64,000 bases of DNA, taken from NCBI GenBank assembly GCA_028819575.1, contig JAPPLB010000069.1, positions 88,470 through 152,469 of the forward strand, written 5' to 3'. The notes under the pieces are model-generated. The model was not told the origin of the DNA, did no database searches, and saw nothing but the letters and a program-made list of their open reading frames with translations. The position numbers were made by a program, and so were the translations under genes. This stretch comes from Bryobacterales bacterium (GTDB lineage Bacteria; Acidobacteriota; Terriglobia; Bryobacterales; UBA6623). Positions 1-63,986 of the stretch are shown here, in pieces (the stretch's first letter is position 1; the number at the start of each line of letters is the position of its first letter).

Positions 1-1436
1 TGGCGGAGTTGCTCGACCTCTGCTTTGTCCTCGAGTGTCAGTAAATGACTCACTTTGCCCGCGCCGATCGAGAGCACCTGCGCCGCAAGCAGCTTCTGCC
101 CAGGTGTCCGTTTTTCTTCCGGCGTGTGGACGGCGATCTGAATATCCTCGGGGAAGGTCTTCAGCTTCTCTTTGAAAGCGATGTCCCTGTAAGGAGCCTG
201 GATTTCAGCAATTCGGTCCTTGAGCGGTTTCAGGAGTTCCTCGACAACGGTTTTCTGCTCTTCATACACCCTGACCTGATCTTCCGGCGCCAGCGGATGG
301 TCGTACCGCACGTACGGGAAGAAGATGGCCATCATCCGGTAGTAGTCAAGCTGCGAGATGGGATCGAACTTGTGATCGTGGCAGCGAGCGCAATCGACCG
401 AGAGGGCCATGAAGGCGCGGCTCGTGGTGCTGATGATGTCATCGAGGTAGGCGTAACGATACTGCGGGTTATCTTTTTCACGAAAGCCGACTCGCGGCCC
501 AACTCGATAGAAGCCGGTAGCGATCAGACTGTCATGTGTCGGGACGTCCAGCTCATCACCTGCGAGTTGCTCGCGCACAAACTGGTAGTAAGGTTTATCG
601 TCGTTGAGCGCGTGTATCACATAGTCGCGATAGCGCCAGGCATTGGGAAAGTCGTAATCGTGCTCGTAACCATGGCTGTCGGCATAGCGGACGACATCGA
701 GCCAATGGCGTCCCCAGCGCTCGCCGTAGTGGGGCGAGGCAAGTAGTCGTTCAATGACCTTTTCGAACGCCTTCGGAGACGCATCGGCGACGAAGGCTTC
801 CACCTCATAAGGCTTAGGGAGGAGCCCGATCAGGTCGAGATAGGCTCGCCGAATCAAGGTTCGACGGTCGGCTGGGGGCGCAGGCGTCAGGTGCTTTTCA
901 GCGAGCTTGCTAAAAACGAATGCATCAACGGGGTGATCGCGATCCGGAACTTCGGGAATCTCGTGCCTCACGGGCGGCTGGAAAGCCCACCAGGTCTCGC
1001 TCCCTGCCGCCTTGGAGCTTTCTTCGCGCTGGTCAAACTCCGCTCCCTGCTCGATCCAGTCACGGATCTTCATGATCTGGTCGTCTTCCAGCGAACCTCC
1101 GAGGGGCATCGGCGGTCCCGCGCTACCTGACACATGCAGATACATCAGGCTCTCGGATGGTCTCTCGGCAACAACGGCCGGGCCGCGTTCCCCACCTTCG
1201 AGGATGCTTTCAGGAGTGCGCAGATCGAGATTCGATTCTTTTGCGCCGTCTCCATGACAGACATAGCAGTTCTCTTTGAGAACCGGCTGGATGTCCTTCG
1301 TGTAGGAAACCGGATCAGAGGCAGCGAGAAATGCGGGGAGAGCAAAGACGAAAACAGGCAGAAGGCAGCAAGACAGAGCTACGGAGTCCTGGGGGCATCC
1401 CCTCGCCGTGGAGCTGCCTGTCGTCAGCGATAACAC
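1..1436 (-). CDS. PSCyt1/DUF1549/DUF1553 (PSD1) family protein, 3' end cut by window edge
   Basis: Absent from the ORF track because it runs off the window. My minus-strand translation gives a signal-like ALSCCLLPVFVFALPAFLAASDP. It continues with DIQPVLKENCYVCHG (CxxCH planctomycete cytochrome c), LASPHYGERWGRHWLDVVRYADS (DUF1549) and CARCHDHKFDPISQLDYY (DUF1553). The + ORFs 45..746, 891..1130 and similar are shadows. The start (GTG near 1436) is uncertain. Confidence 0.8.
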   Translation of the reverse strand, partial: MLSLTTGSSTARGCPQDSVALSCCLLPVFVFALPAFLAASDPVSYTKDIQPVLKENCYVCHGDGAKESNLDLRTPESILEGGERGPAVVAERPSESLMYLHVSGSAGPPMPLGGSLEDDQIMKIRDWIEQGAEFDQREESSKAAGSETWWAFQPPVRHEIPEVPDRDHPVDAFVFSKLAEKHLTPAPPADRRTLIRRAYLDLIGLLPKPYEVEAFVADASPKAFEKVIERLLASPHYGERWGRHWLDVVRYADSHGYEHDYDFPNAWRYRDYVIHALNDDKPYYQFVREQLAGDELDVPTHDSLIATGFYRVGPRVGFREKDNPQYRYAYLDDIISTTSRAFMALSVDCARCHDHKFDPISQLDYYRMMAIFFPYVRYDHPLAPEDQVRVYEEQKTVVEELLKPLKDRIAEIQAPYRDIAFKEKLKTFPEDIQIAVHTPEEKRTPGQKLLAAQVLSIGAGKVSHLLTLEDKAEVEQLR

Positions 1437-1823
1437 GCTCTGAAGGCAAGTGTACGTTGCTTGTAAACCTCTGTCAACGAATTGGAACCCGCTGTAAACG
1501 CAGTGTAGAAAGTACTCCTGTTTGTGCAATAAGGTCGTCTTATAGCAGTGCCCGTGAATCGCGTGCAGCTCATTTTGACAAGACGAATGCGCCTAAGGCG
1601 TGGCAGCCCTAGCCTCCCTGGCGTCATGCCAGGCAGTCCGAGGCAGCAAAAACAAGACTGAACGGCTTCAGTACCTCGAGCCGAAGGGAAATGTTCTGCT
1701 TGGCTCATCAGGGGAACTTCTCACATTTCTCCGACAGGAATCGAAACTGAGGTCAGCTTATGTCGCAACAGGACGACACGGCCGGACTTGTTGGCCCGAC
1801 GAGATCGTAAGGCTGCGTAAGAC

Positions 1824-2318
1824 TTATTCTTCTTGGCTCCAGGGAAGCCGGCTGGTTATTGGGCAAACCTTTTGTACGTTGACATTGATTTCCTTGCCTA
1901 ATTCCTCGAGCTGGCTTTCGTCGAGCTTCGCCTGGATCTCCTGGAAGAGTTGGCGTTCTTCGATGCGGATGTGGCGGTGAAGCAACTTGCTGAATTCCTG
2001 GAGAAGGGGGATCCGGTTGCTGTCGGTCGCGACTGCTAATAGTTCGACGAGTTTCTCCAGTTTGCGGTGCTGTGCGATGAGGTCATCGACCACTTGATCC
2101 GAGTCGAGCCTTGATCGGATCGACGGAAAGAGTACTTTTTCCTCGACTTGAAAATGGCCTAACAGTTCAATTTCGGCCATCCGGGCAACTTTGCGTGAGA
2201 GTTCGAGGGCCTTCCTTTTTGTCGGGTCCGCCTTGAGGCCACGATCGATCAGAACGGTGAGCGCCAAGCCATGTTGATGCTGGTGGGACAGCGGAATCAG
2301 GCTGGGATCGCGAAGCAT
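1824..2318 (-). CDS. hemerythrin / HHE cation-binding domain protein
   Basis: 164-aa ORF. It has helical H...E metal-ligand motifs (GHFQVEEKVLFP, AQHRKLEKL, HRHIRIEERQLFQE) typical of hemerythrin-like domains. Confidence 0.75.
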   Translation of the reverse strand: MLRDPSLIPLSHQHQHGLALTVLIDRGLKADPTKRKALELSRKVARMAEIELLGHFQVEEKVLFPSIRSRLDSDQVVDDLIAQHRKLEKLVELLAVATDSNRIPLLQEFSKLLHRHIRIEERQLFQEIQAKLDESQLEELGKEINVNVQKVCPITSRLPWSQEE

Positions 2319-2373
2319 TGTCTCATTCTACGAACTCATCCTCCCGCCTCCCATGGCTGCTACAATTCACGCC

Positions 2374-2562
2374 ATGCCGATTCTGGATGTGACGCTCATG
2401 ACAGGGCGCTCCTATGAAAAGAAGAAGACGCTCATCAAAGAGTTGACGGACGCGACCGTTCGCGCCCTCGAGGTGTCGCCCGAGCGGGTGCGCGTGATCG
2501 TTCGCGAGATTCATCCTTCTCACTTTGCAGTAGCCGGCGAACCAAAGGGAGAACCCGAGTAA
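2374..2562 (+). CDS. 4-oxalocrotonate tautomerase family enzyme
   Basis: ORF 2353..2562. I place the start at the internal ATG at 2374, which gives MPILDVTLMTGRSYEKKKTLIKELTDA with the catalytic Pro1. The ~62-aa size and sequence pattern are typical of 4-OT. Confidence 0.8.
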   Translation: MPILDVTLMTGRSYEKKKTLIKELTDATVRALEVSPERVRVIVREIHPSHFAVAGEPKGEPE

Positions 2563-2777
2563 GAGCGTGTGTTGATCACCACGACTCAATTCTCGCCATG
2601 GGCCAAAGGAGTAACGCCGACTCGCATGAGGAGCAGTGCGGTGCGTGTCCCTTGGGGCAACCGACATGGTTGGGCTTCGTCTTTGTCGTTCGCAGGAGTA
2701 GGGCGACCTGGATCGCGTCCTGCTCATTCCACGCCAGGCAGCCAGCCGCGACTAGCACGGGACTTCCACAACGGCCG

Positions 2778-4133
2778 CTAGCTGACCTGCGTAAAGAACA
2801 CCTTGTTGGAGAGCAAATCCTTGAGCGCCGGACCCGGCCCTCCGGCCGTATAGAGAATTCCTACATCCGACCCGATCTGATGATGGCCGGTTGGCCGTTC
2901 GACGTTCGGAAGCCAATGTGATTCAAGTTGGTCCTCCGAACTGACCATCGAGAACTCGAACGAGGCGCCGCCGTTCACGGACCGCAATTGCACGACTTCA
3001 TTCGACGGATGGCCCCAGCCGGATTCGTCGCCCTTGAGCTTTTGCAGAGTTGCGACGACGACCGTTTCACCCCGTGAGTCGAAAGTAATTCCGCCGGCCG
3101 TAATGAGACTCCAGGATGACCATTGGTCAGGCAAAAACCTGGACAAGTCGGTGCTGTTCCAGCGTCCATCGTTTTCCAGGCGCTTGATGAAAAGCCTTCC
3201 TCGTCCCTGTTCCTCGATGCTGTACAGGAGATGAGGCCGACCCTTGCGATCAACCGCCAATGCACCGGCTCGCACAACCCGTTGTTGGTCGACACCACCC
3301 CTTACGAGAACTTCGGCTGTTTCGACCGTGACAGGAAGGGTCAGGGTTCGTCCATCGCTACGGGTCCAGCTCTCGCCGAAATCGCGACTAACCATGTATG
3401 AGACTGTCTGCAGGCGGCCATACGCATCCTTGTCGGATTTCTCGTGGAAACGGCAGCACAGATGCAGGGTGCGGTGGTCCGGTCCCCATGCGAGCGATTC
3501 CTGAAAGTGAGCGTAGCCAGGATGGCGCGACGCGAGCAGCGAACCCTTCCTTCGCCATACTTCACCAGCCGGGAGTTTCCATAACTCTACCTCCCACGGC
3601 TTGTCCCGAAATCTGCGCCGGCCGCTGAGATACAACGTGTCATCCTGTCCACAAACAAACGTGGGGTACGTCAACCCCTCGCCGATAAGTACTTCCTCTC
3701 CCCACTCGGACGCGTCGTTAGGACGTTTCGACTTGCGATAACGCATGGCGTGATGATGCGGGTAGTAGACAATGTGCAGGAAGCCAGAACTGTCGATCGT
3801 GAGCGCCGGTCCTCCATGGTTGTCATATGCCTCACCGACCGTTGCTGTCGGAGACCAATCTCCCGTCCGACGGTCGAGTGTCCGCACACGCACGCGGAAT
3901 CCCTCGGGTGGTGAATCAAGCCAGGCTACGTGGGTTCGATCGCCGCTTGTGACAATCTTATTCGCCTCTGAATATGCGCTCGCGCGGCCACATCCGCGCT
4001 CGGAAAGCAGAAACGGTTGATTGCTGCCTGTTTCTTTCGACAGGGCATGTGGGGTAAGGCAGCCCGCCACAGCCACGCCTGCAGTTCTCAACCAGTGTCG
4101 TCGTGAATGAGGGATAACGCTTGGATTGCCCAT
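2778..4133 (-). CDS. BNR-4-type beta-propeller protein with twin-arginine signal
   Basis: 451 aa. N-terminus is SRRHWLRTAGVAVAG (TAT-like). The motif YDNHGGPALTIDSSGFLHIVYYPHHHAMRYRKS resembles the BNR repeat-containing family (BNR_4). Confidence 0.6.
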   Translation of the reverse strand: MGNPSVIPHSRRHWLRTAGVAVAGCLTPHALSKETGSNQPFLLSERGCGRASAYSEANKIVTSGDRTHVAWLDSPPEGFRVRVRTLDRRTGDWSPTATVGEAYDNHGGPALTIDSSGFLHIVYYPHHHAMRYRKSKRPNDASEWGEEVLIGEGLTYPTFVCGQDDTLYLSGRRRFRDKPWEVELWKLPAGEVWRRKGSLLASRHPGYAHFQESLAWGPDHRTLHLCCRFHEKSDKDAYGRLQTVSYMVSRDFGESWTRSDGRTLTLPVTVETAEVLVRGGVDQQRVVRAGALAVDRKGRPHLLYSIEEQGRGRLFIKRLENDGRWNSTDLSRFLPDQWSSWSLITAGGITFDSRGETVVVATLQKLKGDESGWGHPSNEVVQLRSVNGGASFEFSMVSSEDQLESHWLPNVERPTGHHQIGSDVGILYTAGGPGPALKDLLSNKVFFTQVS

Positions 4134-8155: not shown

Positions 8156-9586
8156 GTGATGGATCGAACCGTGAATCGCAGAAACTTCCTGGGAACCGCC
8201 GCTGCGGTTTTTCCTCATCTCGCACGAAGTCAAACGGCCAAGCCCAGGAAGCCGAATCTTATTTTCATCCTGGCGGACGATCTCGGTTACGGCGACCTCG
8301 GCTGCTACGGCCAAAACCATATTGACACCTCAAACATCGATCGGCTCGCGGAAGAGGGCATGCGGTTCACGGATGCTTATGCAGGATCGACCGTCTGCGC
8401 GCCGTCGCGATCGTGTCTGATGACGGGACAGCACACGGGCCGTACGCGCATCCGGAACAACTCGAGTCCCACAATGGGGCGCGTTCCTCTCCTACCTTCG
8501 GACCTCACGGTCGCCGAGGTGCTCCAAGAGGCTGGATACCGCACCGCCATGATTGGCAAGTGGGGTTTGGGTGAGGCTGGCAGCACGGGCGTTCCGACCA
8601 AGAAGGGGTTCGATGACTGGTTCGGATACCTCAACCAGGGCCACGCTCATAACTTCTACCCGGAACACCTCTGGGACAATGACAGCGAGATCTTCCTATC
8701 CGGCAATCGTGGCGGCGCACGCCAGCAATACAGTCACGATCTGTTTGTGGAACGCGCGCTCGAGTTTCTCGATGACCACTCCGGAGAAGCGTTTTTCCTC
8801 TACCTGCCGTTTACGATTCCGCATGCGAACAACGAGTTGGGACGTTTCACGGGAGACGGCATGGAAGTTCCCGGCTACGAACCCTACGCCGAAGAGAACT
8901 GGCCTAACACCGAAAAGGGATTCGCCGCAATGGTTACTCGCATGGACCGCGACATCGGACGAATCATGACGAAGCTCAAGCAACTGGGGATCGACGAAGA
9001 CACCATTGTCGTGTTTAGCAGCGATAACGGGCCACATCGGGAAGGCGGACATGACCCGGAGTTCTTCGGGAGCCGCGGGGGGCTGCGAGGTATCAAGCGG
9101 GATCTGTATGAGGGGGGCATTAGGGTGCCGGCTATCGCACGTTGGCCGGGTCAGATCCAGGCCGGCGCGGTCAGTGGGCATCCCTGGGCATTCTGGGACT
9201 TTCTCCCGACAGCCGCGGAGCTTGCCGGATCAACAACACCGGGCAACATTGACGGCACTTCCATCGTCCCGACGCTGCTGGGTAAAGAGCAGTCCGAACC
9301 CGGATATCTGTACTGGGAGTTTGCCCGTGGCGGCAATTTCCATCAGGCTGTCAGAAAGGGTGAGTGGAAAGCGGTTCGGCACGGACTCAGCGAACCGATC
9401 GAACTCTACAACCTTGAAGAAGATCGATCCGAGAGCAACGACGTTGCCATCCAGCAGCCGGTGATCAGAGAAGAGATGGCGGACATCCTTTCGAGAGCGC
9501 GTGTGGAATCCGAGGAGTATCCACTACCGAGACAGCAAGGCCGGGCTACCGGGTTTCGAGAAAAAAAGCCAACTCATCACGCCTGA
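8156..9586 (+). CDS. arylsulfatase-family sulfatase, TAT signal
   Basis: 476 aa. NRRNFLGTAAAV is a twin-arginine signal. PNLIFILADDLGYGDLG and CAPSRSCLMTG (CxPxR formylglycine motif) are present. GTG 8156 or ATG 8159 follows an AGGAG. The last ~14 codons are antisense to a gene remnant (see the 9546..9716 feature). Confidence 0.9.
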   Translation: MMDRTVNRRNFLGTAAAVFPHLARSQTAKPRKPNLIFILADDLGYGDLGCYGQNHIDTSNIDRLAEEGMRFTDAYAGSTVCAPSRSCLMTGQHTGRTRIRNNSSPTMGRVPLLPSDLTVAEVLQEAGYRTAMIGKWGLGEAGSTGVPTKKGFDDWFGYLNQGHAHNFYPEHLWDNDSEIFLSGNRGGARQQYSHDLFVERALEFLDDHSGEAFFLYLPFTIPHANNELGRFTGDGMEVPGYEPYAEENWPNTEKGFAAMVTRMDRDIGRIMTKLKQLGIDEDTIVVFSSDNGPHREGGHDPEFFGSRGGLRGIKRDLYEGGIRVPAIARWPGQIQAGAVSGHPWAFWDFLPTAAELAGSTTPGNIDGTSIVPTLLGKEQSEPGYLYWEFARGGNFHQAVRKGEWKAVRHGLSEPIELYNLEEDRSESNDVAIQQPVIREEMADILSRARVESEEYPLPRQQGRATGFREKKPTHHA

Positions 9587-9716
9587 AGGCCCGAAGAGTT
9601 TCAACCCTGCCATCACGAACGAGGACGCGACCCTCAGCAGCAGATGCGACCGCTCCAACCTGCCAAGCCGAGATGCCCGCGTTGGAATTGTGTCCTGGCC
9701 GACAAAGCGACCTTAT
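9546..9716 (-). pseudogene. 3'-terminal remnant of an AIR-synthase-related (HypE/ThiL-like) paralogue
   Basis: The minus-strand translation GISAWQVGAVASAAEGRVLVRDGRVETLRAFRRDELAFFLETR* aligns by hand to the C-terminus of the intact gene at 12187..13203 (GISAREIGEVVSAADGVTLVRDGRAEPLPVFNRDELARFLETR*), 29 of 43 identical. It is bounded upstream by an in-frame stop at 9717-9719 and has no N-terminal part. Confidence 0.6.
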
Positions 9717-12095: not shown

Positions 12096-12186
12096 TTTCT
12101 CAAGCTCCGGCCAGAGCCAGGCTGCAGTTTGCACCGTCAGTTCTTTCCCGACGCGACCCGGATTCTGCCGGCGCGGCAGGGATCGG

Positions 12187-13203
12187 CTACCGGGTTTCGA
12201 GAAAGCGAGCCAGCTCATCGCGGTTGAAGACCGGAAGAGGCTCAGCCCGTCCATCACGAACGAGCGTTACACCATCTGCGGCAGAGACGACCTCTCCAAT
12301 CTCCCGAGCCGAGATGCCTACGTCGTTGAGCGCTCCAATCGCCTCCGGCACCACGGTCGCGGGAACCGTTGCAAGCAGGGCGCCCGAAGCGAGCAAACCC
12401 AACGGGTCAAGGTCCAGGGCTGTAGTGATGATGCTCGTTTCCGGCAGGAGTTCGATCTTTTCGAGCATGATGCGCAATCCGACGTTGGCCGCCTCGGCAA
12501 GCTCGTGCAGCGCTGTGAAAACGCCTCCTTCTGTCGGGTCATGCATCGAATGGACCGGCACGGCATCCCTCAGAGCACGGCACGCGGGCAGTACTGAAAT
12601 GCCCGGCTCGACCATCCATTGGGAAGATTTCTCGATCACCGTTTCGGAAACACCCAGTACCCGAAGCAGCCCGGCGTGTTCCGAAGCGAGAATGGCCGTG
12701 CCCTCGATGGCCACGCCCGCCGTCAGGAGGACGGCGTCTCCGACACGAGCCCCCGCGGTCCTCACAACGGCATCCCGTTGGACGGTTCCCAGCAGGCATC
12801 CGCTGAGGATAGGACGGTCGAGTCCAACCGTGACCTCGGTGTGACCGCCCACCAGAGACACCCCATATTCCCGACAAGCATGAGCTACGCTGTCGAAGAG
12901 CTCACGTACTTCATGCCTATCGATCTCTTCCGGCAAAAGCGCGGTGACCAGCAGCCACCGCGGTTCCGCTCCCATCGTTGCGAGGTCGTTTCCGTTGACC
13001 GCGAGAAGGTAGCGCCCCATGTCCGCCGCGGCAAACGTGATTGGGTCCATCTTGGCAACGATCAGGTCTTTGCCGCCGGGGTCGATCACGGCAGCGTCCT
13101 CTCCGAGAGCACTGCCGACAACCACGGAGGGATCGACGGACGGGATGGTATCGAGAAGTTCCTTAAGGAGACCAGGCGGAAGTTTGCCGGCGGCAAGCTT
13201 CAT
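12187..13203 (-). CDS. AIR synthase-related protein (PurM/HypE/ThiL superfamily)
   Basis: ORF 12187..13314. The likely start is the internal ATG at 13203 (MKLAAGKLPPGLLKELL). GEDAAVID, NDLATMGAEP, VSLVGGHTEV and MHDPTEGGV match the PurM-like N and C domains. Confidence 0.8.
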   Translation of the reverse strand: MKLAAGKLPPGLLKELLDTIPSVDPSVVVGSALGEDAAVIDPGGKDLIVAKMDPITFAAADMGRYLLAVNGNDLATMGAEPRWLLVTALLPEEIDRHEVRELFDSVAHACREYGVSLVGGHTEVTVGLDRPILSGCLLGTVQRDAVVRTAGARVGDAVLLTAGVAIEGTAILASEHAGLLRVLGVSETVIEKSSQWMVEPGISVLPACRALRDAVPVHSMHDPTEGGVFTALHELAEAANVGLRIMLEKIELLPETSIITTALDLDPLGLLASGALLATVPATVVPEAIGALNDVGISAREIGEVVSAADGVTLVRDGRAEPLPVFNRDELARFLETR

Positions 13204-39878: not shown

Positions 39879-40018
39879 GTTGGCGCCATCCAGAACATTC
39901 TCCTTTCTCGGCATGGGTTCATTTTTCTTTCGTCGCAGCGGAGGCAGCGCGGAGGCGGCGGGAGCGGCGGCGGACGGCACGCACGGCTGGCTGGACGGCG
40001 GCAAAGTCCGTGATTCGT

Positions 40019-40080
40019 GTTTCATGTCTTGTGATTCGTGAAAACCTTTAAAGCAGTGGTTTGTGATTAGCGGCTGGTGA
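40019..40080. promoter_or_regulatory. phased GTGATT(C/A)G direct repeats (candidate activator binding sites)
   Basis: cGTGATTCGTG at 40019-40029, tGTGATTCGTG at 40040-40050 (21-nt spacing) and tGTGATTAG at 40072-40080. They lie in the divergent intergenic region between the hydrolase operon and the kinase gene. Confidence 0.25.
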
Positions 40081-40199: not shown

Positions 40200-42814
<2,615 letters not shown>

Positions 42815-42819
42815 GCCTG

Positions 42820-43030
42820 GCAGCCCGCGGCAAAAGCCACGCAGGCGGCGTTACTCTCTCCAGGGCCGATTGCGTACCGCGTGGCCGCTCCAGGAACGCA
42901 GTACCACGCTCTCCGCGCCTCCGAGCGGGAGTGGCGCGCAACCCTTTGGGCGACGGACATTTGCAGTCGCCGGCTTTGTCGTTCGTCGGAGGAGATCACC
43001 CGGATCGCCATCCTCCTCACTTCGCGCCGC
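42820..43030 (+). repeat. repeat family X, copy X1 (interrupted at its 3' side by Y)
   Basis: Starts 6 nt after the regulator's stop codon. It is homologous along its length to 63726..63935. The first 35 nt differ at 5 positions. The core aacccttYgggcgacgg...ggaggagatcacccggatcgccatcctcctcac is near-identical. Confidence 0.7.
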
Positions 43031-43032
43031 TA

Positions 43033-43211
43033 GCCTGCATTTCTCACCACCCGACGGTCGAAGCACGCCATACGGCCGCCAGGACTTCGTTGCGCTTGCT
43101 TGCCGTGCTCAACGTACTGTTCAAGTACGCCTGCGCGCGCCAAGCGGCTCGCGCCTCGTCCTGACGGCCCTCTCACGCACTTCGCCTCGCCATGTGGTGA
43201 GAAATGCAGGC
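43033..43211 (+). mobile_element. repeat family Y, full copy A: 179-bp foldback MITE-like element
   Basis: The left end gcctgcatttctcaccac and right end gtggtgagaaatgcaggc are exact reverse complements. TA lies on both flanks (43031-32 and 43212-13). The interior halves are imperfectly complementary. It has no coding capacity. Confidence 0.75.
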
Positions 43212-43240
43212 TACTACAATGGGCCTTTCAAGGCTCACTC

Positions 43241-44137
43241 GTGCATCTTCGCCACTGGCTTCTGCTCGTCGTAACCCAGTCCGTGTGGTCCGGCAGCTAC
43301 ATTGCCATGAAGCTTGCAGGCCAGGAAATGCCGGTCGGCCTGATCGTCTTTCTCCGCTACGGCCTCGCCACGGCTCTGCTGCTCTGCGCCGCGCCCTGGA
43401 ACGGCCTGCCCCGACTGCAACGCCGTGACTGGCTTCTCGTCATCGCCCTGGGCGCGCTCAACTTCACGCTCGCTCCCACACTCCAAATCACCGGACTCAA
43501 GCACACCCAAGCCATCGACGTCTCCGTCCTGATCGCGCTGGAACCGATGATGACCGTCGCTCTCGCCGCCCTGGCGCTGGGCGAGCGGCCGTCGAGCCTT
43601 ACGCTGGGGGCATTGCTGCTCGGCACCTCCGGGATGCTGATTCTTTCGGGAGCCGGCTTTGCGGATATGGCCGCCGGCTCCTCGAACCGCCTGTTCGGCA
43701 ACTCCCTGTTCACCATTTCGCTGCTGTGCGAGGCCGCCGTCACGGTAGGCGGAGCACGGCTCGCGTCGCGCTACGCACCCAGCCATTCCGTGCTCGGCAT
43801 GAAGGCCGCCGGATTCCTGGCGGCGGCGGCTTTCTTCAGCCCGGTAATCCTATCCGCCGATCTTGGCGCCTTTTCCTGGAATGCGTGGGCCTCTGTCATC
43901 TACCTCGCCGTCCTCCCATCGGTCTTCGGCTACACCGTCTGGTACCGCGTCATCAAAGTCGTGCCGGTCAACCACGTCGCGCTGAGCCTCTTCGTCCAGC
44001 CCATCGTCGGAAGCGCAATCGGTTACACTTTCCTTGGCGAAACCATCGGCTACGAGACCGCCGCCGGTGCTTTCCTGGTTTGCGCCAGCCTGGCCTGGTG
44101 GCAATCCCGAAGCCTGAGAACCAAACCGCAGGCGTGA
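43241..44137 (+). CDS. EamA/DMT family transporter
   Basis: ORF 43100..44137. Upstream of ~43213 that ORF is repeat sequence, so I place the start at GTG 43241 (uncertain). It has ten hydrophobic segments and two EamA-like halves (WSGSYIAMK...; VFGYTVWYRVIK). Confidence 0.75.
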   Translation: MHLRHWLLLVVTQSVWSGSYIAMKLAGQEMPVGLIVFLRYGLATALLLCAAPWNGLPRLQRRDWLLVIALGALNFTLAPTLQITGLKHTQAIDVSVLIALEPMMTVALAALALGERPSSLTLGALLLGTSGMLILSGAGFADMAAGSSNRLFGNSLFTISLLCEAAVTVGGARLASRYAPSHSVLGMKAAGFLAAAAFFSPVILSADLGAFSWNAWASVIYLAVLPSVFGYTVWYRVIKVVPVNHVALSLFVQPIVGSAIGYTFLGETIGYETAAGAFLVCASLAWWQSRSLRTKPQA

Positions 44138-45523: not shown

Positions 45524-46180
45524 TTGAACCTCAGAGGACTCATCTTCGACCTGGACGGCACCTTGGGCGACACGCTGCCCGTCTGCTTCACAGCCTTCCG
45601 GATCACTTTCCGGCACTATCTCAACCGCCACTACAGCGACAAGCAGATCCGGGCCATGTTCGGCCCCACCGAAGAAGGTATCTTCCAAGACATGTTCCCC
45701 GATTTCTGGGAAGAGGCCTGTGCGATGTACCTCAGCGAATACCGCCGCGCTCACCAGAACTGCCGCGAGCCCTTTCCCCGCATCCCCGAGGTCCTCGAGC
45801 TTCTCAAACGGCTTGGCCTCCGCACGGCTATCGTCACCGGCAAGGGACCCGGCAGCGCCAGGATTTCCTTAGAAGAGATGGGCCTCGCCGAGGCGTTCGA
45901 CATCGTGGAAGCCGGCTCACCCCGCGGCGGCATCAAGCCGGAATGCATGCTCAAGGTGCTCGAAGCCTGGGGCCTGCCCGCCGATCAAATCGCCTGTGTC
46001 GGCGACGCCCCTTCCGACATCCGCTCCGCGCACGAAATCGGCGCCACTGCCCTTGGGGCCGCCTGGGCCCCCACGTCAAGCTACGAGACCCTTGCCGCCC
46101 TGAATCCAAGCCACACGTTCACCACCACACAGCAGTTCATCGAATGGATCCAGAGCACGCGAGAAAAAGGCTGTGGTTAG
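45524..46180 (+). CDS. HAD-superfamily hydrolase (phosphoglycolate phosphatase-like)
   Basis: 218 aa with a TTG start. LIFDLDGTLGDT, IVTGK and VGDAPSDI are HAD motifs I-IV. Confidence 0.8.
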   Translation: MNLRGLIFDLDGTLGDTLPVCFTAFRITFRHYLNRHYSDKQIRAMFGPTEEGIFQDMFPDFWEEACAMYLSEYRRAHQNCREPFPRIPEVLELLKRLGLRTAIVTGKGPGSARISLEEMGLAEAFDIVEAGSPRGGIKPECMLKVLEAWGLPADQIACVGDAPSDIRSAHEIGATALGAAWAPTSSYETLAALNPSHTFTTTQQFIEWIQSTREKGCG

Positions 46181-46300
46181 TTTTTAGTTGTTAGTGAAAA
46201 CCTTTGGCGGGGGACTGGTTCGCCCCAGAAGAAATGTCTAAAGGCCAGTGAACCGGAAAGGCCGTGTTTCTTGACCCGAAGGGTGAAGGAGGCGATTTGG

Positions 46301-46388
46301 CAAGCACGCCTGCGCGCCAAGCGGCGCACGCGTCGTTCTGACGCCCCTCTCACGCACTTCGCCTCGCCACATGGTGAGAAATGCAGGA
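46301..46388 (+). mobile_element. repeat family Y, right-half copy C
   Basis: caagcacgcctgcgcgccaagcggc...ctcacgcacttcgcctcgccacatggtgagaaatgcagga matches the right ~90 nt of Y. It is followed by TA (46389-90). Confidence 0.7.
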
Positions 46389-51750: not shown

Positions 51751-51879
51751 CTCCGAAACATCTCCTCTCACGCGACGGCCCACGTGAGCAGTCCGCCGAC
51801 AGCCGGTGATGGACGAAGCGGCCGCCCCAAGCGCCGAAAGCCTCGGCTCGATGGAGGCTGCCGGGGAGGCTGCCGGTTA

Positions 51880-52058
51880 ACCTGCATTTCTCACCACCAG
51901 ACGGTCGAAGCACGCCATACGGCCGCCAGGACTTCGTTGCGCTTGCTTGCCGTGCTCAACGTACTGTTCAAGTACGCCTGCGCGCGCCAAGCGGCTCGCG
52001 CCTCGCCCTGACGGCCCTCTCACGCACTTCGCCTCGCCGCGTGGTGAGACATGCAGGT
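51880..52058 (+). mobile_element. repeat family Y, full copy B (179 bp)
   Basis: Same length as copy A and differs from it at ~6 positions by hand alignment. It is flanked by TA within TTAA on both sides (51877-80 and 52058-61). Confidence 0.75.
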
Positions 52059-52182
52059 TAAATATCGAACTGCTGCGCGCCATGCCGCCTCGCGCCAGAC
52101 TCCCGCTTGAATCCCTGAAATGGGTGGTGGATAATCCTAGCAAGCCTAGCAAGTTCAACTCAGGTATTTCCGTATATCCGGC

Positions 52183-55525: not shown

Positions 55526-55601
55526 TTTTTTCTTCGCTGCCAAGGTTCACATTCGAGTCAAGTTGACGCGGCGATCCGTTGTCCTGCTTGCCGGTTTGAG
55601 G
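55526..55601 (+). repeat. repeat family Z, copy Z1
   Basis: aaggttcacattcgagtcaagttgacgcggcgatccgttgtcctgcttgccggtttgagg (55542-55601) matches 58134-58193 with 4 mismatches in 60 nt. A T-run leader is also shared. Confidence 0.7.
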
Positions 55602-55680
55602 GTTTTTTTCGGTAGCCTGCATTTCAAAACAGGAGTACGATAGGAACGAAAGTCCAAAGGCCGCACCACTCGAGAGAAAC

Positions 55681-58115: not shown

Positions 58116-58193
58116 TTTTTTTATTCCTGGGCTAAGGTTCACGTTTGAGTCAAGTTCACGCGGCGATCCGTTGTCCTGCTTGCCGGTCTGAGG
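58116..58193 (+). repeat. repeat family Z, copy Z2
   Basis: See Z1. It is in the same orientation and lies immediately upstream (in antisense sense) of the YVTN gene start. Confidence 0.7.
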
Positions 58194-59220: not shown

Positions 59221-59261
59221 GCCTGCATATCTCGCCGCCCGACGGCCGCAACACGACATTC
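59221..59261 (+). mobile_element. repeat family Y, diverged left-end fragment E
   Basis: gcctgcatatctcgccgcccgacggccgcaacacgacattc compared with the Y left end gcctgcatttctcaccacccgacggtcgaagcacgccatac gives ~33 of 41 identical. Confidence 0.5.
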
Positions 59262-60415: not shown

Positions 60416-60451
60416 GCCTGCATTTCTCGCCATGTGGTGAGAAATGCAGGC
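60416..60451. repeat. minimal Y derivative: the two Y termini fused into a 12-bp-stem hairpin
   Basis: gcctgcatttctc-gccatgtggt-gagaaatgcaggc. It abuts the TAA stop of the AKR gene and lies between convergent genes, so it could act as a bidirectional terminator. Confidence 0.6.
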
Positions 60452-63726: not shown

Positions 63727-63986
63727 CAGCCCGTGGTGAAAGTCACGCGGGCGGCGTTACGCGCCGGGGGCCGATGGAGTAACGCCTGGTCATTCGAGGA
63801 ACAGGGCGCTGCACCCTCTGTGCCGTTGACCGGAATCGGCGCGTAACCCTTCGGGCGACGGACATTTGCGGCCGTCGGCTTTGTCGTTCGTCGGAGGAGA
63901 TCACCCGGATCGCCATCCTCCTCACTCCGCGCCGAGCGACCGCAGGAGCCCGCCGCGCCTTCCACGGGACCTTCACCACGGGCTGC
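63726..63986 (+). repeat. repeat family X, copy X2 (apparently complete, with terminal inverted repeats)
   Basis: Begins at the G of the TAG stop. The left end gcagcccgtggtgaaagt and right end accttcaccacgggctgc are reverse complements (17 of 18). The core is near-identical to X1. Confidence 0.7.

What the first reader, a model, noticed from the sequence alone, without database searches (positions are those of the whole stretch)
43031..43213. Repeat family Y: 179-bp foldback MITE with perfect 18-20-bp terminal inverted repeats and TA flanks, recently active
Full copies at 43033-43211 and 51880-52058 have identical length and differ at only ~6 positions (hand alignment). Their termini gcctgcatttctcaccac / gtggtgagaaatgcaggc are exact inverted repeats, and the interior halves are imperfect reverse complements. 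The flanks are CTAG..CTAC and TTAA..TTAA, that is, TA on each side. The half copy at 46301-46388 and the 11-nt left-end remnant at 55615-55625 (preceded by TA; tagcctgcatttc is identical to the copy-A junction) are also TA-flanked. TA duplication is the hallmark of IS630/Tc1-mariner transposition, but no transposase is present in the window. Further derivatives lie at 59221-59261 and 60416-60451.
Basis: partly seen in the sequence, partly recalled or inferred. Interest (0 to 1): 0.55.

Follow-up and report, generated by a model that had tools for sequence, protein, structure and literature searches.

The report
IS1380-type MITE family in Bryobacterales
The two 179-base repeats are real copies of a small, non-coding mobile element that is abundant in Bryobacterales (Acidobacteriota) genomes, but it duplicates four bases (YTAR) on insertion and its ends match an IS1380-family insertion sequence, not an IS630/mariner one; it is an ordinary kind of element.

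Summary
Copies at 43033-43211 and 51880-52058 are 97% identical, have 17-nt terminal inverted repeats (CCTGCATTTCTCACCAC) and fold into a long hairpin (z about -9 to -11). The fragments at 46301-46388, 55613-55625, 59221-59261 and 60416-60451 are also real.

In 106 loci from public genomes the family has at least 68 near-full copies, mostly in Bryobacterales MAG chromosomes.

The flanks are not TA. They are a directly duplicated 4-mer, YTAR. Among 45 elements with YTAR on both sides, 34 have the same 4-mer on left and right, against 15 expected. These include non-palindromic CTAA/CTAA and TTAG/TTAG. The element proper is therefore 177 bp (43034-43210).

A matching autonomous element exists. 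It is a 1723-bp IS encoding an IS1380-family transposase, flanked by CTAG/CTAG. Its right end, CCTGCATTTCTCACCAG, matches 16 of the 17 TIR bases. It occurs in the same genomes as Y, often right next to Y copies, and as three identical copies in one chromosome. No copy lies in the window or in 8 contigs of the same species.

"Recently active" is only partly supported: copies are 0-13% (mean 4.8%) from consensus, and strain differences at the window's sites are deletions or rearrangements.

Verdict: a new member of a known kind (MITE); low to moderate interest.

The parts
43030..43033 (.). Left copy of the target-site duplication of copy A (CTAG)
   Evidence: Sequence read directly.
43034..43210 (+). 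Copy A, element proper (177 bp). The 17-nt TIRs lie at 43034-43050 and 43194-43210, with the hairpin apex GTACTGTTCAAGTAC in the middle. The right end lies 30 nt upstream of the GTG start (43241) of an EamA-type transporter gene.
   Evidence: Gene calls come from identical contigs. The copy is 1.7% from the family consensus.
43211..43214 (.). Right flank of copy A (CTAC), a 3-of-4 match to the left CTAG
51877..51880 (.). Left target-site duplication of copy B (TTAA)
51881..52057 (+). Copy B, element proper (177 bp), in the 494-nt spacer between a BBP2-type outer-membrane protein gene and a PSCyt1/PSD1 gene. The right TIR has one mismatch.
   Evidence: The copy is 3.4% from consensus. It is absent from strain contig L107, with imprecise boundaries.
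52058..52061 (.). Right target-site duplication of copy B (TTAA)
46154..46387 (+). Member of a longer (about 280 bp) subfamily that has lost its left TIR. Its interior has GTTAG/GTGATTC-like short repeats and the motif GTGAAAACC. Its left part supplies the last codons of the HAD hydrolase gene that ends at 46180.
   Evidence: compare L017 6019, L014 1432, L003 2969.
60417..60450 (.). Minimal copy made of the two TIRs only (a 34-nt hairpin), lying between convergent genes and starting 2 nt after a TAA stop codon
   Evidence: Similar TIR-only hairpins occur at L011 5458-5491, L058 7084-7122, L104 from 7408, and L049 ending at 994. It is present unchanged in the contigs carrying the identical neighbouring gene (three contigs, two shown).
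59222..59261 (+). Decayed left-end fragment (TIR with 3 mismatches plus about 23 nt of interior)
55613..55625 (+). 13-nt remnant (TAG plus the first 10 nt of the TIR)
   Evidence: 3 exact matches in the window, 0 expected.

Best explanation
Family Y is a non-autonomous transposon (MITE). Its 17-nt ends are the binding and cleavage sites of an IS1380-family DDE transposase supplied in trans by a 1.72-kb insertion sequence found in related Bryobacterales genomes.

The transposase inserts the element at YTAR sites (CTAG > CTAA/TTAG > TTAA) and duplicates all four bases. Each insertion recreates two YTAR sites. This would explain why copies of Y, of other MITEs and of the IS itself pile up end to end.

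Both ends of Y resemble the IS's right end. The 143-bp interior is an unrelated imperfect palindrome, so Y is not a simple internal deletion of the IS.

In the window the copies are passive, slowly decaying intergenic passengers. Old copies lose ends or interiors by deletion and recombination, leaving half copies, TIR-only hairpins and short remnants.

Shown: the copy family, the TIRs, the 4-bp direct duplication, the matching IS and its transposase family, and co-occurrence with Y. Inferred: that this transposase actually moves Y, and the cut-and-paste chemistry, by analogy with the related piggyBac and IS4-type DDE enzymes.
For: 1. Copy family. BLAST against 106 loci fetched with the TIR found 125 distinct matches, 68 of them near full length. 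Most are in Bryobacterales chromosomes OZ242366.1, OZ241991.1 and OZ244625.1 and in MAG JAPOOG01, all with different flanks.

2. Four-bp TSD. Of 45 elements with YTAR on both sides, 34 have the same 4-mer on left and right (15.3 expected; 0 of 20,000 shuffles reached 34). These include CTAA/CTAA x5 and TTAG/TTAG x6. The position-wise Fisher tests give 1.4e-6 and 4.5e-6, whereas the TIR-type complementarity of the inner bases gives p = 0.055.

3. Partner IS.
- L001 356-2079 is flanked CTAG/CTAG and carries a 487-aa ORF. The ORF scores 491 bits on Pfam PF13701 and 388 bits on NCBIfam NF033539 'IS1380 family transposase' (cut-off 180).
- Six more copies (L115-L120) are 1722-1734 bp. Four are flanked CTAG/CTAG, L116 is CTAG/CTAA, and for L120 the contig starts inside the left flank (tag.../...ctag).
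- The ends are CCCGGATATCTCACCAG and CCCGCATTTCTCACCAG. In L120 the right end is CCTGCATTTCTCACCAG, matching 16 of 17 bases of the Y TIR.

4. Co-occurrence.
- The transposase is encoded on OZ241991.1 and OZ244625.1, which carry many Y copies.
- L120 comes from run SRR10996926, numerically adjacent to SRR10996927, which contains the window's species.
- IS copies abut Y copies in L001 and L117 and sit inside Y-subfamily copies in L118 and L119.

5. The IS looks recently active: three copies in one 5.63-Mb chromosome are identical over 1723 bp, with different flanks.

6. Background knowledge. IS1380-family elements have CC-starting IRs and 4-5 bp duplications (ISfinder summary, from my own knowledge; IS1247 is listed with DR 5 in PMC3281130).
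Against: - No IS1380 transposase is present in the window or in 8 contigs (up to 21 kb each) of the same species, so a partner in this genome is not shown.
- Y shares only the terminal 16-17 nt with the IS; bases 18-60 match at chance level.
- No clean empty site was found for any Y copy. For palindromic CTAG or TTAA flanks, a 4-bp duplication and a TA duplication give the same sequence, so the 4-bp call rests on statistics and on the non-palindromic cases. Ten elements fit only a TA model with complementary termini, although mutated duplications can explain them.
Confidence: 0.85

Rival explanations
1. One reading: a MITE mobilised by an IS630/Tc1-mariner transposase. It inserts at TA (as IS630 does at CTAG) and duplicates only TA, and the element is 179 bp with G...C termini.
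For: TA is nearly invariant on both sides (60-65 of 68 copies). For CTAG and TTAA flanks this model predicts the same sequence as a 4-bp duplication. Ten of 45 elements fit only this model. IS630's CTAG preference with TA duplication is from my own knowledge.
Against: - The outer and inner flank bases are correlated as direct repeats (p about 1e-6), which this model does not predict.
- Eleven elements have non-palindromic identical 4-mers.
- The combinations this model predicts (CTAA...TTAG, TTAG...CTAA) were seen 0 times.
- The only autonomous element found with these ends is IS1380-family.
- No IS630-type gene was seen next to any lone end.
Confidence: 0.04
2. A MITE mobilised by an IS5-family (IS5-group) transposase, the classic enzyme that targets YTAR and duplicates 4 bp.
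For: The YTAR 4-bp duplication is exactly the IS5 signature (PMC5009759). IS711, also IS5-family, likewise targets YTAR (PMC2266754).
Against: No IS5-family element with these ends was found among 122 loci. An IS1380-family element with 16 of 17 matching end bases and the same CTAG duplication was found seven times. IS5-family ends typically start GG or GA (my own knowledge), whereas Y starts CC.
Confidence: 0.05
3. Not primarily a transposon but a host-selected structured element, such as a REP/REPIN-like hairpin, an sRNA, or a terminator or 5'-UTR regulator, that is conserved because of its fold.
For: - The hairpin is very stable.
- The consensus is nearly the same across different species, and the 17-nt end recurs in other phyla.
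- One apex-proximal pair covaries: CG in 33 copies, UA in 7.
- Copy A sits 30 nt upstream of a start codon.
- TIR-only hairpins recur after stop codons.
Against: - There is no Rfam match, even at E <= 1.
- No promoter or intrinsic terminator lies within the element.
- Substitutions mostly break pairs: 93.1% of cells are paired against 92.4% in shuffles. The other 'covarying' pair (1-179) is the duplicated target, not structure.
- Direct 4-bp duplications and a matching IS are transposon hallmarks.
- No RAYT-type gene was seen, though no dedicated search for one was made.
Confidence: 0.05

Closest known systems
IS1380-family insertion sequences (IS1380, IS1247, ISEcp1) and their non-autonomous derivatives
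   Same: The partner element's transposase passes the NCBIfam IS1380 equivalog model and Pfam DDE_Tnp_1_4. It has a single ORF and is about 1.7 kb. Its short IRs start with CC, and it makes a 4-bp duplication, within the 4-5 bp range known for the family.
   Different: Y itself has no ORF and shares only the 16-17 nt end. The strict YTAR/CTAG target seen here is not, to my knowledge, a listed hallmark of the family. I found no paper in the library linking a MITE to IS1380.
piggyBac transposons (eukaryotic relatives of IS1380)
   Same: Both make a 4-bp duplication of a T-A-centred tetranucleotide (TTAA is one of the YTAR targets) and have termini starting CC(C). IS1380 transposases serve as the outgroup in piggyBac phylogenies (PMC10813416).
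   Different: piggyBac is eukaryotic, uses TTAA almost exclusively and has larger transposases. Precise excision has not been tested here.
IS5 (IS5 group) and its MITEs
   Same: The same target motif YTAR and the same 4-bp duplication (PMC5009759).
   Different: Different ends and a different transposase family. No IS5-type partner was found.
TA-duplicating bacterial MITEs (Correia/NEMIS, RUP, IS630-derived elements)
   Same: Small, intergenic, hairpin-forming, multi-copy elements with TIRs.
   Different: Those duplicate TA only. Y duplicates four bases.
REP/REPIN elements as landing sites of IS110-family elements (e.g. IS621 in E. coli REPs)
   Same: An IS110-family element sits at exactly the same position in the apex of four different Y copies. 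This resembles IS110 elements that target palindromic repeats.
   Different: Y has TSDs and a DDE partner. REPs are linked to RAYT (Y1) transposases and lack TSDs.

Membership tests
MITE (generic) | Short, non-coding, with many dispersed copies | tested here: met
   The unit is 177 bp. At least 68 near-full copies have unrelated flanks. Only spurious ORFs cross it.
MITE (generic) | Terminal inverted repeats | tested here: met
   The 17-nt TIR is perfect in copy A and conserved across the alignment A2.
MITE (generic) | Target-site duplication of fixed length | tested here: met
   The duplication is 4 bp, YTAR. Of 45 elements, 34 have identical flanks against 15.3 expected.
MITE (generic) | An autonomous element with matching ends and the same TSD | tested here: met
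   The IS in L001 and L115-L120 matches 16 of 17 end bases and has a CTAG TSD.
IS1380-family derived element | The partner's transposase belongs to the IS1380 family | tested here: met
   NF033539 scores 388 bits (cut-off 180) and PF13701 scores 491 bits.
IS1380-family derived element | IRs start with CC and the duplication is 4-5 bp | tested here: met
   Ends are CCTGCA.../CCCG..., and the duplication is 4 bp. The family definition is from my own knowledge of ISfinder.
IS1380-family derived element | Mobilisation of Y by that transposase | not testable with these tools
   This needs a transposition assay.
IS1380-family derived element | Partner present in the same genome as the window | tested here: inconclusive
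   The partner is absent from the window and from L107-L114. It is present in run SRR10996926, numerically adjacent to the run that carries the window's species. The whole MAG could not be searched.
IS630/Tc1-mariner derived MITE | Duplication of TA only | tested here: not met
   The flank bases outside TA are duplicated as direct repeats (p about 1e-6). There are 11 non-palindromic identical 4-mers.
IS630/Tc1-mariner derived MITE | An IS630-family transposase with matching ends | tested here: not met
   None was found among 122 loci, and the matching IS is IS1380-family. The search was not exhaustive.
IS5-group derived MITE | YTAR target with 4-bp duplication | tested here: met
   compare PMC5009759.
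IS5-group derived MITE | Ends matching an IS5-family element | tested here: not met
   No such element was found in the loci.
REP/REPIN (RAYT-associated) | No TSD; associated Y1 (RAYT) transposase gene flanked by the repeats | tested here: not met
   TSDs are present. No RAYT-type gene was seen in the loci inspected, but no dedicated search for one was made.
Any Rfam RNA family | Covariance-model match | tested here: not met
   There were 0 matches at gathering score in the window, and 0 at E <= 1 in 42700-43400.

The most novel reading that the evidence does not exclude
Family Y may be the first documented MITE lineage driven by an IS1380-family (piggyBac-related) transposase with a strict YTAR 4-bp target, with related elements carrying the same 17-nt end spread over several phyla (other Acidobacteriota classes such as Terriglobia and Thermoanaerobaculia, Verrucomicrobiota, Planctomycetota). 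It may also be the dedicated landing pad of an IS110-family (RNA-guided) element that inserts at one fixed position in the hairpin apex. That would make a three-layer nested parasite system: IS110 in the MITE, and IS1380 in the IS110 and in the MITE.
Probability: 0.35. Interest if true: 0.45.

Novelty: new member of a known kind. Interest (0 to 1): 0.3.

Why it matters
For annotation, these repeats should be masked as IS1380-type MITEs. They break metagenome assemblies: several contigs of this species end inside them. They are also hot spots of strain-level rearrangement next to genes.

For transposon biology, the family offers a large natural data set on target choice (YTAR) for the poorly studied IS1380 family, the bacterial relatives of piggyBac. 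It also gives a clear example of an IS110-family element using a MITE hairpin apex as its specific target.

None of this changes a major concept.

Tried and rejected
- Looked for an autonomous element as a pair of inverted ends 0.4-4 kb apart. L053 6304-7921 turned out to be a Y copy split by an IS110-family element. L022 204-1565 and L093 1393-2277 hold no transposase. Only L001 356-2079 was the real partner.
- Searched for empty sites. The window shares no orthologous region with the 106 genome loci. Contigs of the same species gave a different rearrangement at copy A (only the right 62 nt of Y present). At copy B there was an imprecise absence in L107, possibly a deletion between CTGC microhomologies. 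At the half copy there was yet another deletion. The TIR-only hairpin is invariant. So no clean filled/empty pair was obtained.
- All-against-all BLAST of the loci for other shared long repeats found only one orthologous pair and the IS110 element.
- Tested for selection on the fold: essentially negative.
- Rfam, promoter and terminator scans were negative.
- Tested whether Y is an internal-deletion derivative of the IS: no, only 16 nt are shared.
- Literature searches for an IS1380-linked MITE, or for MITEs in sponge Acidobacteria, found nothing specific.
- The metagenome-contig scan was not used.

Full report
**1. The observation**

The window (about 60% G+C) carries two 179-nt units at 43033-43211 and 51880-52058. 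They align without gaps, at 96% identity over 183 nt and 97.2% over the 177-nt core.

The 17-mer CCTGCATTTCTCACCAC and its complement form the ends. It occurs 8 times in the window with up to 3 mismatches, against 0.2 expected. Each unit folds into one long imperfect hairpin: -97.6 kcal/mol on the + strand (z = -8.9) and -117.2 on the - strand (z = -10.9).

- the right half at 46301-46388;
- a 34-nt hairpin made of the two ends only, at 60417-60450;
- a decayed left end at 59222-59261;
- a 13-nt remnant at 55613-55625, with 0 expected by chance.

**2. Size and host range of the family**

BLAST of copy A against them gave 125 distinct matches, 68 of them near full length and all with different flanks.

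Most lie in three complete Bryobacterales (Acidobacteriota) MAG chromosomes (OZ242366.1, OZ241991.1, OZ244625.1) and in MAG JAPOOG01.

Exact-protein look-up of the response-regulator gene next to copy A showed that the window is the same sequence as a 152-kb scaffold from a metagenome (ROBB21-1). The species also occurs in MAGs GCA_028821525.1 and GCA_028820545.1.

The family has several length classes:
- the 177-nt form;
- forms of about 200 nt;
- forms of about 280 nt whose interior carries GTGATTC-type short repeats and the motif GTGAAAACC;
- TIR-only hairpins of 34-39 nt.

The window's 'half copy' belongs to the 280-nt class and has lost its left end (about 46154-46387).

**3. The flanks are a 4-bp duplication, not TA**

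When all near-full copies are oriented alike, the left flank reads Y-T-A-R directly before CCTGCA. The right flank reads Y-T-A-R directly after TGCAGG.

The two readings predict different things:
- If 4 bp are duplicated, the left and right 4-mers must be identical.
- If only TA is duplicated, the inner bases should be complementary (as part of the inverted repeat) and unrelated to the outer bases.

Among 93 elements defined by adjacent inverted ends, 45 have YTAR on both sides, and 34 of these have the same 4-mer on left and right (15.3 expected; 0 of 20,000 shuffles reached 34). They include the non-palindromic CTAA/CTAA (5) and TTAG/TTAG (6).

Position 1 left versus position 1 right gives Fisher p = 1.4e-6, and position 4 versus position 4 gives 4.5e-6. 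The complementarity test gives p = 0.055. The combinations expected only from a TA model (CTAA...TTAG, TTAG...CTAA) were never seen.

The element proper is therefore 177 bp: 43034-43210 and 51881-52057. Copy A is flanked CTAG/CTAC (one change) and copy B TTAA/TTAA.

YTAR with a 4-bp duplication is the known signature of IS5 (PMC5009759). IS711 uses the same target but is reported to duplicate only TA (PMC2266754), so the distinction matters.

**4. The autonomous partner**

Searching the loci for a second, more degenerate end 0.5-4 kb inward found an element at L001 356-2079. It is flanked CTAG/CTAG, with ends CCCGCATTTCTCACCAG and CCCGGATATCTCACCAG. It carries one 487-aa ORF and sits directly beside a Y copy.

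The protein is an IS1380-family transposase: Pfam DDE_Tnp_1_4 at 491 bits, and NCBIfam NF033539 at 388 bits against a cut-off of 180.

A protein search found close relatives (84-94% identity) on the same Bryobacterales chromosomes that carry Y. Fetching their DNA gave six further IS copies:
- L115 on OZ241991.1;
- L116 on OZ244625.1;
- L117-L119 on a 5.63-Mb chromosome;
- L120 from run SRR10996926, numerically adjacent to the run that holds the window's species.

They are 1722-1734 bp. Four are flanked CTAG/CTAG, L116 is CTAG/CTAA, and for L120 the contig starts inside the left flank (tag.../...ctag). In L120 the right end is CCTGCATTTCTCACCAG, so 16 of the 17 TIR bases match Y.

L117-L119 are identical over 1723 bp but have different flanks, so the IS moved recently in that genome.

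More distant relatives (69-78% protein identity) keep ends of the type CCCGSA..TCTCACCAG next to TTAG.

Y shares nothing with the IS beyond the end: bases 18-60 match at chance level. Both Y ends are of the IS's right-end type. Y is therefore an end-mimicking MITE, not an internal-deletion derivative.

**5. How it most likely works**

The IS1380-family DDE transposase, made by an IS copy elsewhere in the genome, probably binds the two 17-nt ends of Y. It then inserts the element at YTAR with a 4-nt staggered cut, and repair of that cut gives the duplication.

This is inferred from the matching ends, the matching duplication and the co-occurrence. No assay exists.

Each insertion creates two new YTAR sites, which would explain the frequent end-to-end arrangements:
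- Y-Y in L001 and L024;
- the X repeat next to Y in the window, L008, L016, L056 and L093;
- the IS next to Y in L001 and L117;
- the IS inside Y-subfamily copies at a CTAG in L118 and L119.

IS1380 transposases are the prokaryotic relatives used as the outgroup for piggyBac (PMC10813416). piggyBac likewise duplicates a 4-bp TA-centred target (TTAA) and has CC-starting ends. That suggests, but does not show, a similar cut-and-paste chemistry.

**6. Age and activity**

In an alignment of 41 copies (A2), mean divergence from the consensus is 4.8% (range 0-13%). Copy A is at 1.7% and copy B at 3.4%. The closest pair of copies is 98.3% identical.

The tree is star-like: one copy in OZ241991.1 equals the consensus, and most copies have it as nearest neighbour. 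There is thus no sign of a very recent burst of Y itself.

Within the window's species, all three sites differ between strains, but not as clean insertions:
- At copy A, the other haplotype keeps only the right 62 nt of Y, joined to a differently truncated neighbour repeat.
- Copy B is missing from L107 with imprecise borders, possibly a deletion between CTGC repeats.
- At the half copy, L107 has a different deletion that leaves only a left end.

Contigs of this species often end inside the repeats.

**7. Is it a functional RNA or DNA structure?**

Probably not primarily.
- There is no Rfam match at any threshold tried.
- No sigma-70-type promoter or intrinsic terminator lies inside the element.
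- On the 41-copy alignment the hairpin is 93.1% paired against 92.4% in column shuffles, and most substitutions break pairs.
- The only genuine double change is pair 81-97 (CG in 33 copies, UA in 7), which is shared by one sublineage.
- The apparent covariation of pair 1-179 is the duplicated target.

Local effects remain possible. Copy A ends 30 nt upstream of the GTG start of an EamA transporter gene. The TIR-only hairpin begins 2 nt after a stop codon, between convergent genes.

**8. Comparison with known systems, and verdict**

It works like a classical MITE, and its partner is a member of the IS1380 family. The IS630/Tc1-mariner assignment fails its defining test (TA-only duplication). 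The IS5 assignment shares the target but lacks a matching IS.

I found no paper in the library that links a MITE to IS1380, and none describing MITEs in sponge-associated Acidobacteria. The family itself therefore appears undescribed, but it is a new member of a well-known kind.

Interest is low to moderate. The more unusual points lie outside the window: the same 17-nt end in other phyla, and an IS110-family element that targets the hairpin apex.

Noticed in passing
L053 6395-7834; L101 from 7860; L106 up to 475; L115 about 769-3951: An IS110-family element of about 1.44 kb (NCBIfam 'IS110 family RNA-guided transposase', 335 bits) is inserted at exactly the same place in the apex of four different Y copies. 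The junction reads ...GTACTGTTCAA | TATATGGTTCGC...CATCCCATAA | GTACG.... The MITE hairpin loop seems to be its specific target.
   Followed up: partly
window 42816-43029 (3'-truncated, abuts copy A) and 63727-63986 (full): Repeat X is a second MITE-like family of about 262 bp. Its TIRs are CAGCCCGTGNCAAAAGTC / GACTTTTGNCACGGGCTG, and it is also flanked by YTAR (for example CTAA/CTAA in L025). It is often found directly next to Y copies (L008, L016, L056, L093).
   Followed up: partly
window 55526-55601 and 58118-58193; L001 41-115: A third short repeat (76 nt, 86% identical between the two window copies) lies next to the 13-nt Y remnant. By eye, its reverse complement resembles the sequence next to a Y copy in L001; this similarity was not computed.
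   Followed up: no
L115 1962-3695: An IS1380-family copy is inserted at a CTAG inside the transposase gene of the IS110 element, which itself sits in a Y copy. This is three nested layers. The intact IS110 in L053 has CCAG at that site.
   Followed up: partly
L118 and L119 1944-3666, compared with window 46195-46240: Two of the three identical IS1380-family copies sit at the same internal CTAG of two different copies of the 280-nt Y subfamily. The window's copy has CTGG at that position.
   Followed up: partly
window 46154-46180: The last codons and the stop of the HAD-hydrolase gene (45524-46180) are supplied by repeat sequence. Strain L107 has a different junction and a protein of 214 instead of 218 aa.
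   Followed up: partly
window 40017-40049 and 46173-46205: Both sites carry short GT-rich repeats ending in GTGAAAACCTTT, the internal motif of the 280-nt subfamily. The copy at 40017-40049 lies just before a histidine-kinase ORF and may be another remnant.
   Followed up: no
L006, L010, L026, L038, L045, L068, L076, L081 (Verrucomicrobiota); L041 (Thermoanaerobaculia); L032, L088 (Terriglobia); L040 (Tepidisphaerales): The same 17-nt end, preceded by CTAG/CTAA/TTAG, occurs in other phyla on different bodies. In Verrucomicrobiota these are elements of about 66 bp ending ...CATGCAGG|CTAG. In L041 they are 178-bp foldbacks that keep a similar apex (GTACTGTCGAGTAC).
   Followed up: partly
L001 (JAPOWV010000036.1): This 2.3-kb contig is binned as a Gammaproteobacteria MAG, yet it consists of Y copies plus the IS1380-family element typical of Bryobacterales. 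It is probably a binning error, or else a sign of transfer.
   Followed up: no
window 9524-9682 and 12165-12323: A 159-nt direct repeat at 75% identity, unrelated to Y.
   Followed up: no
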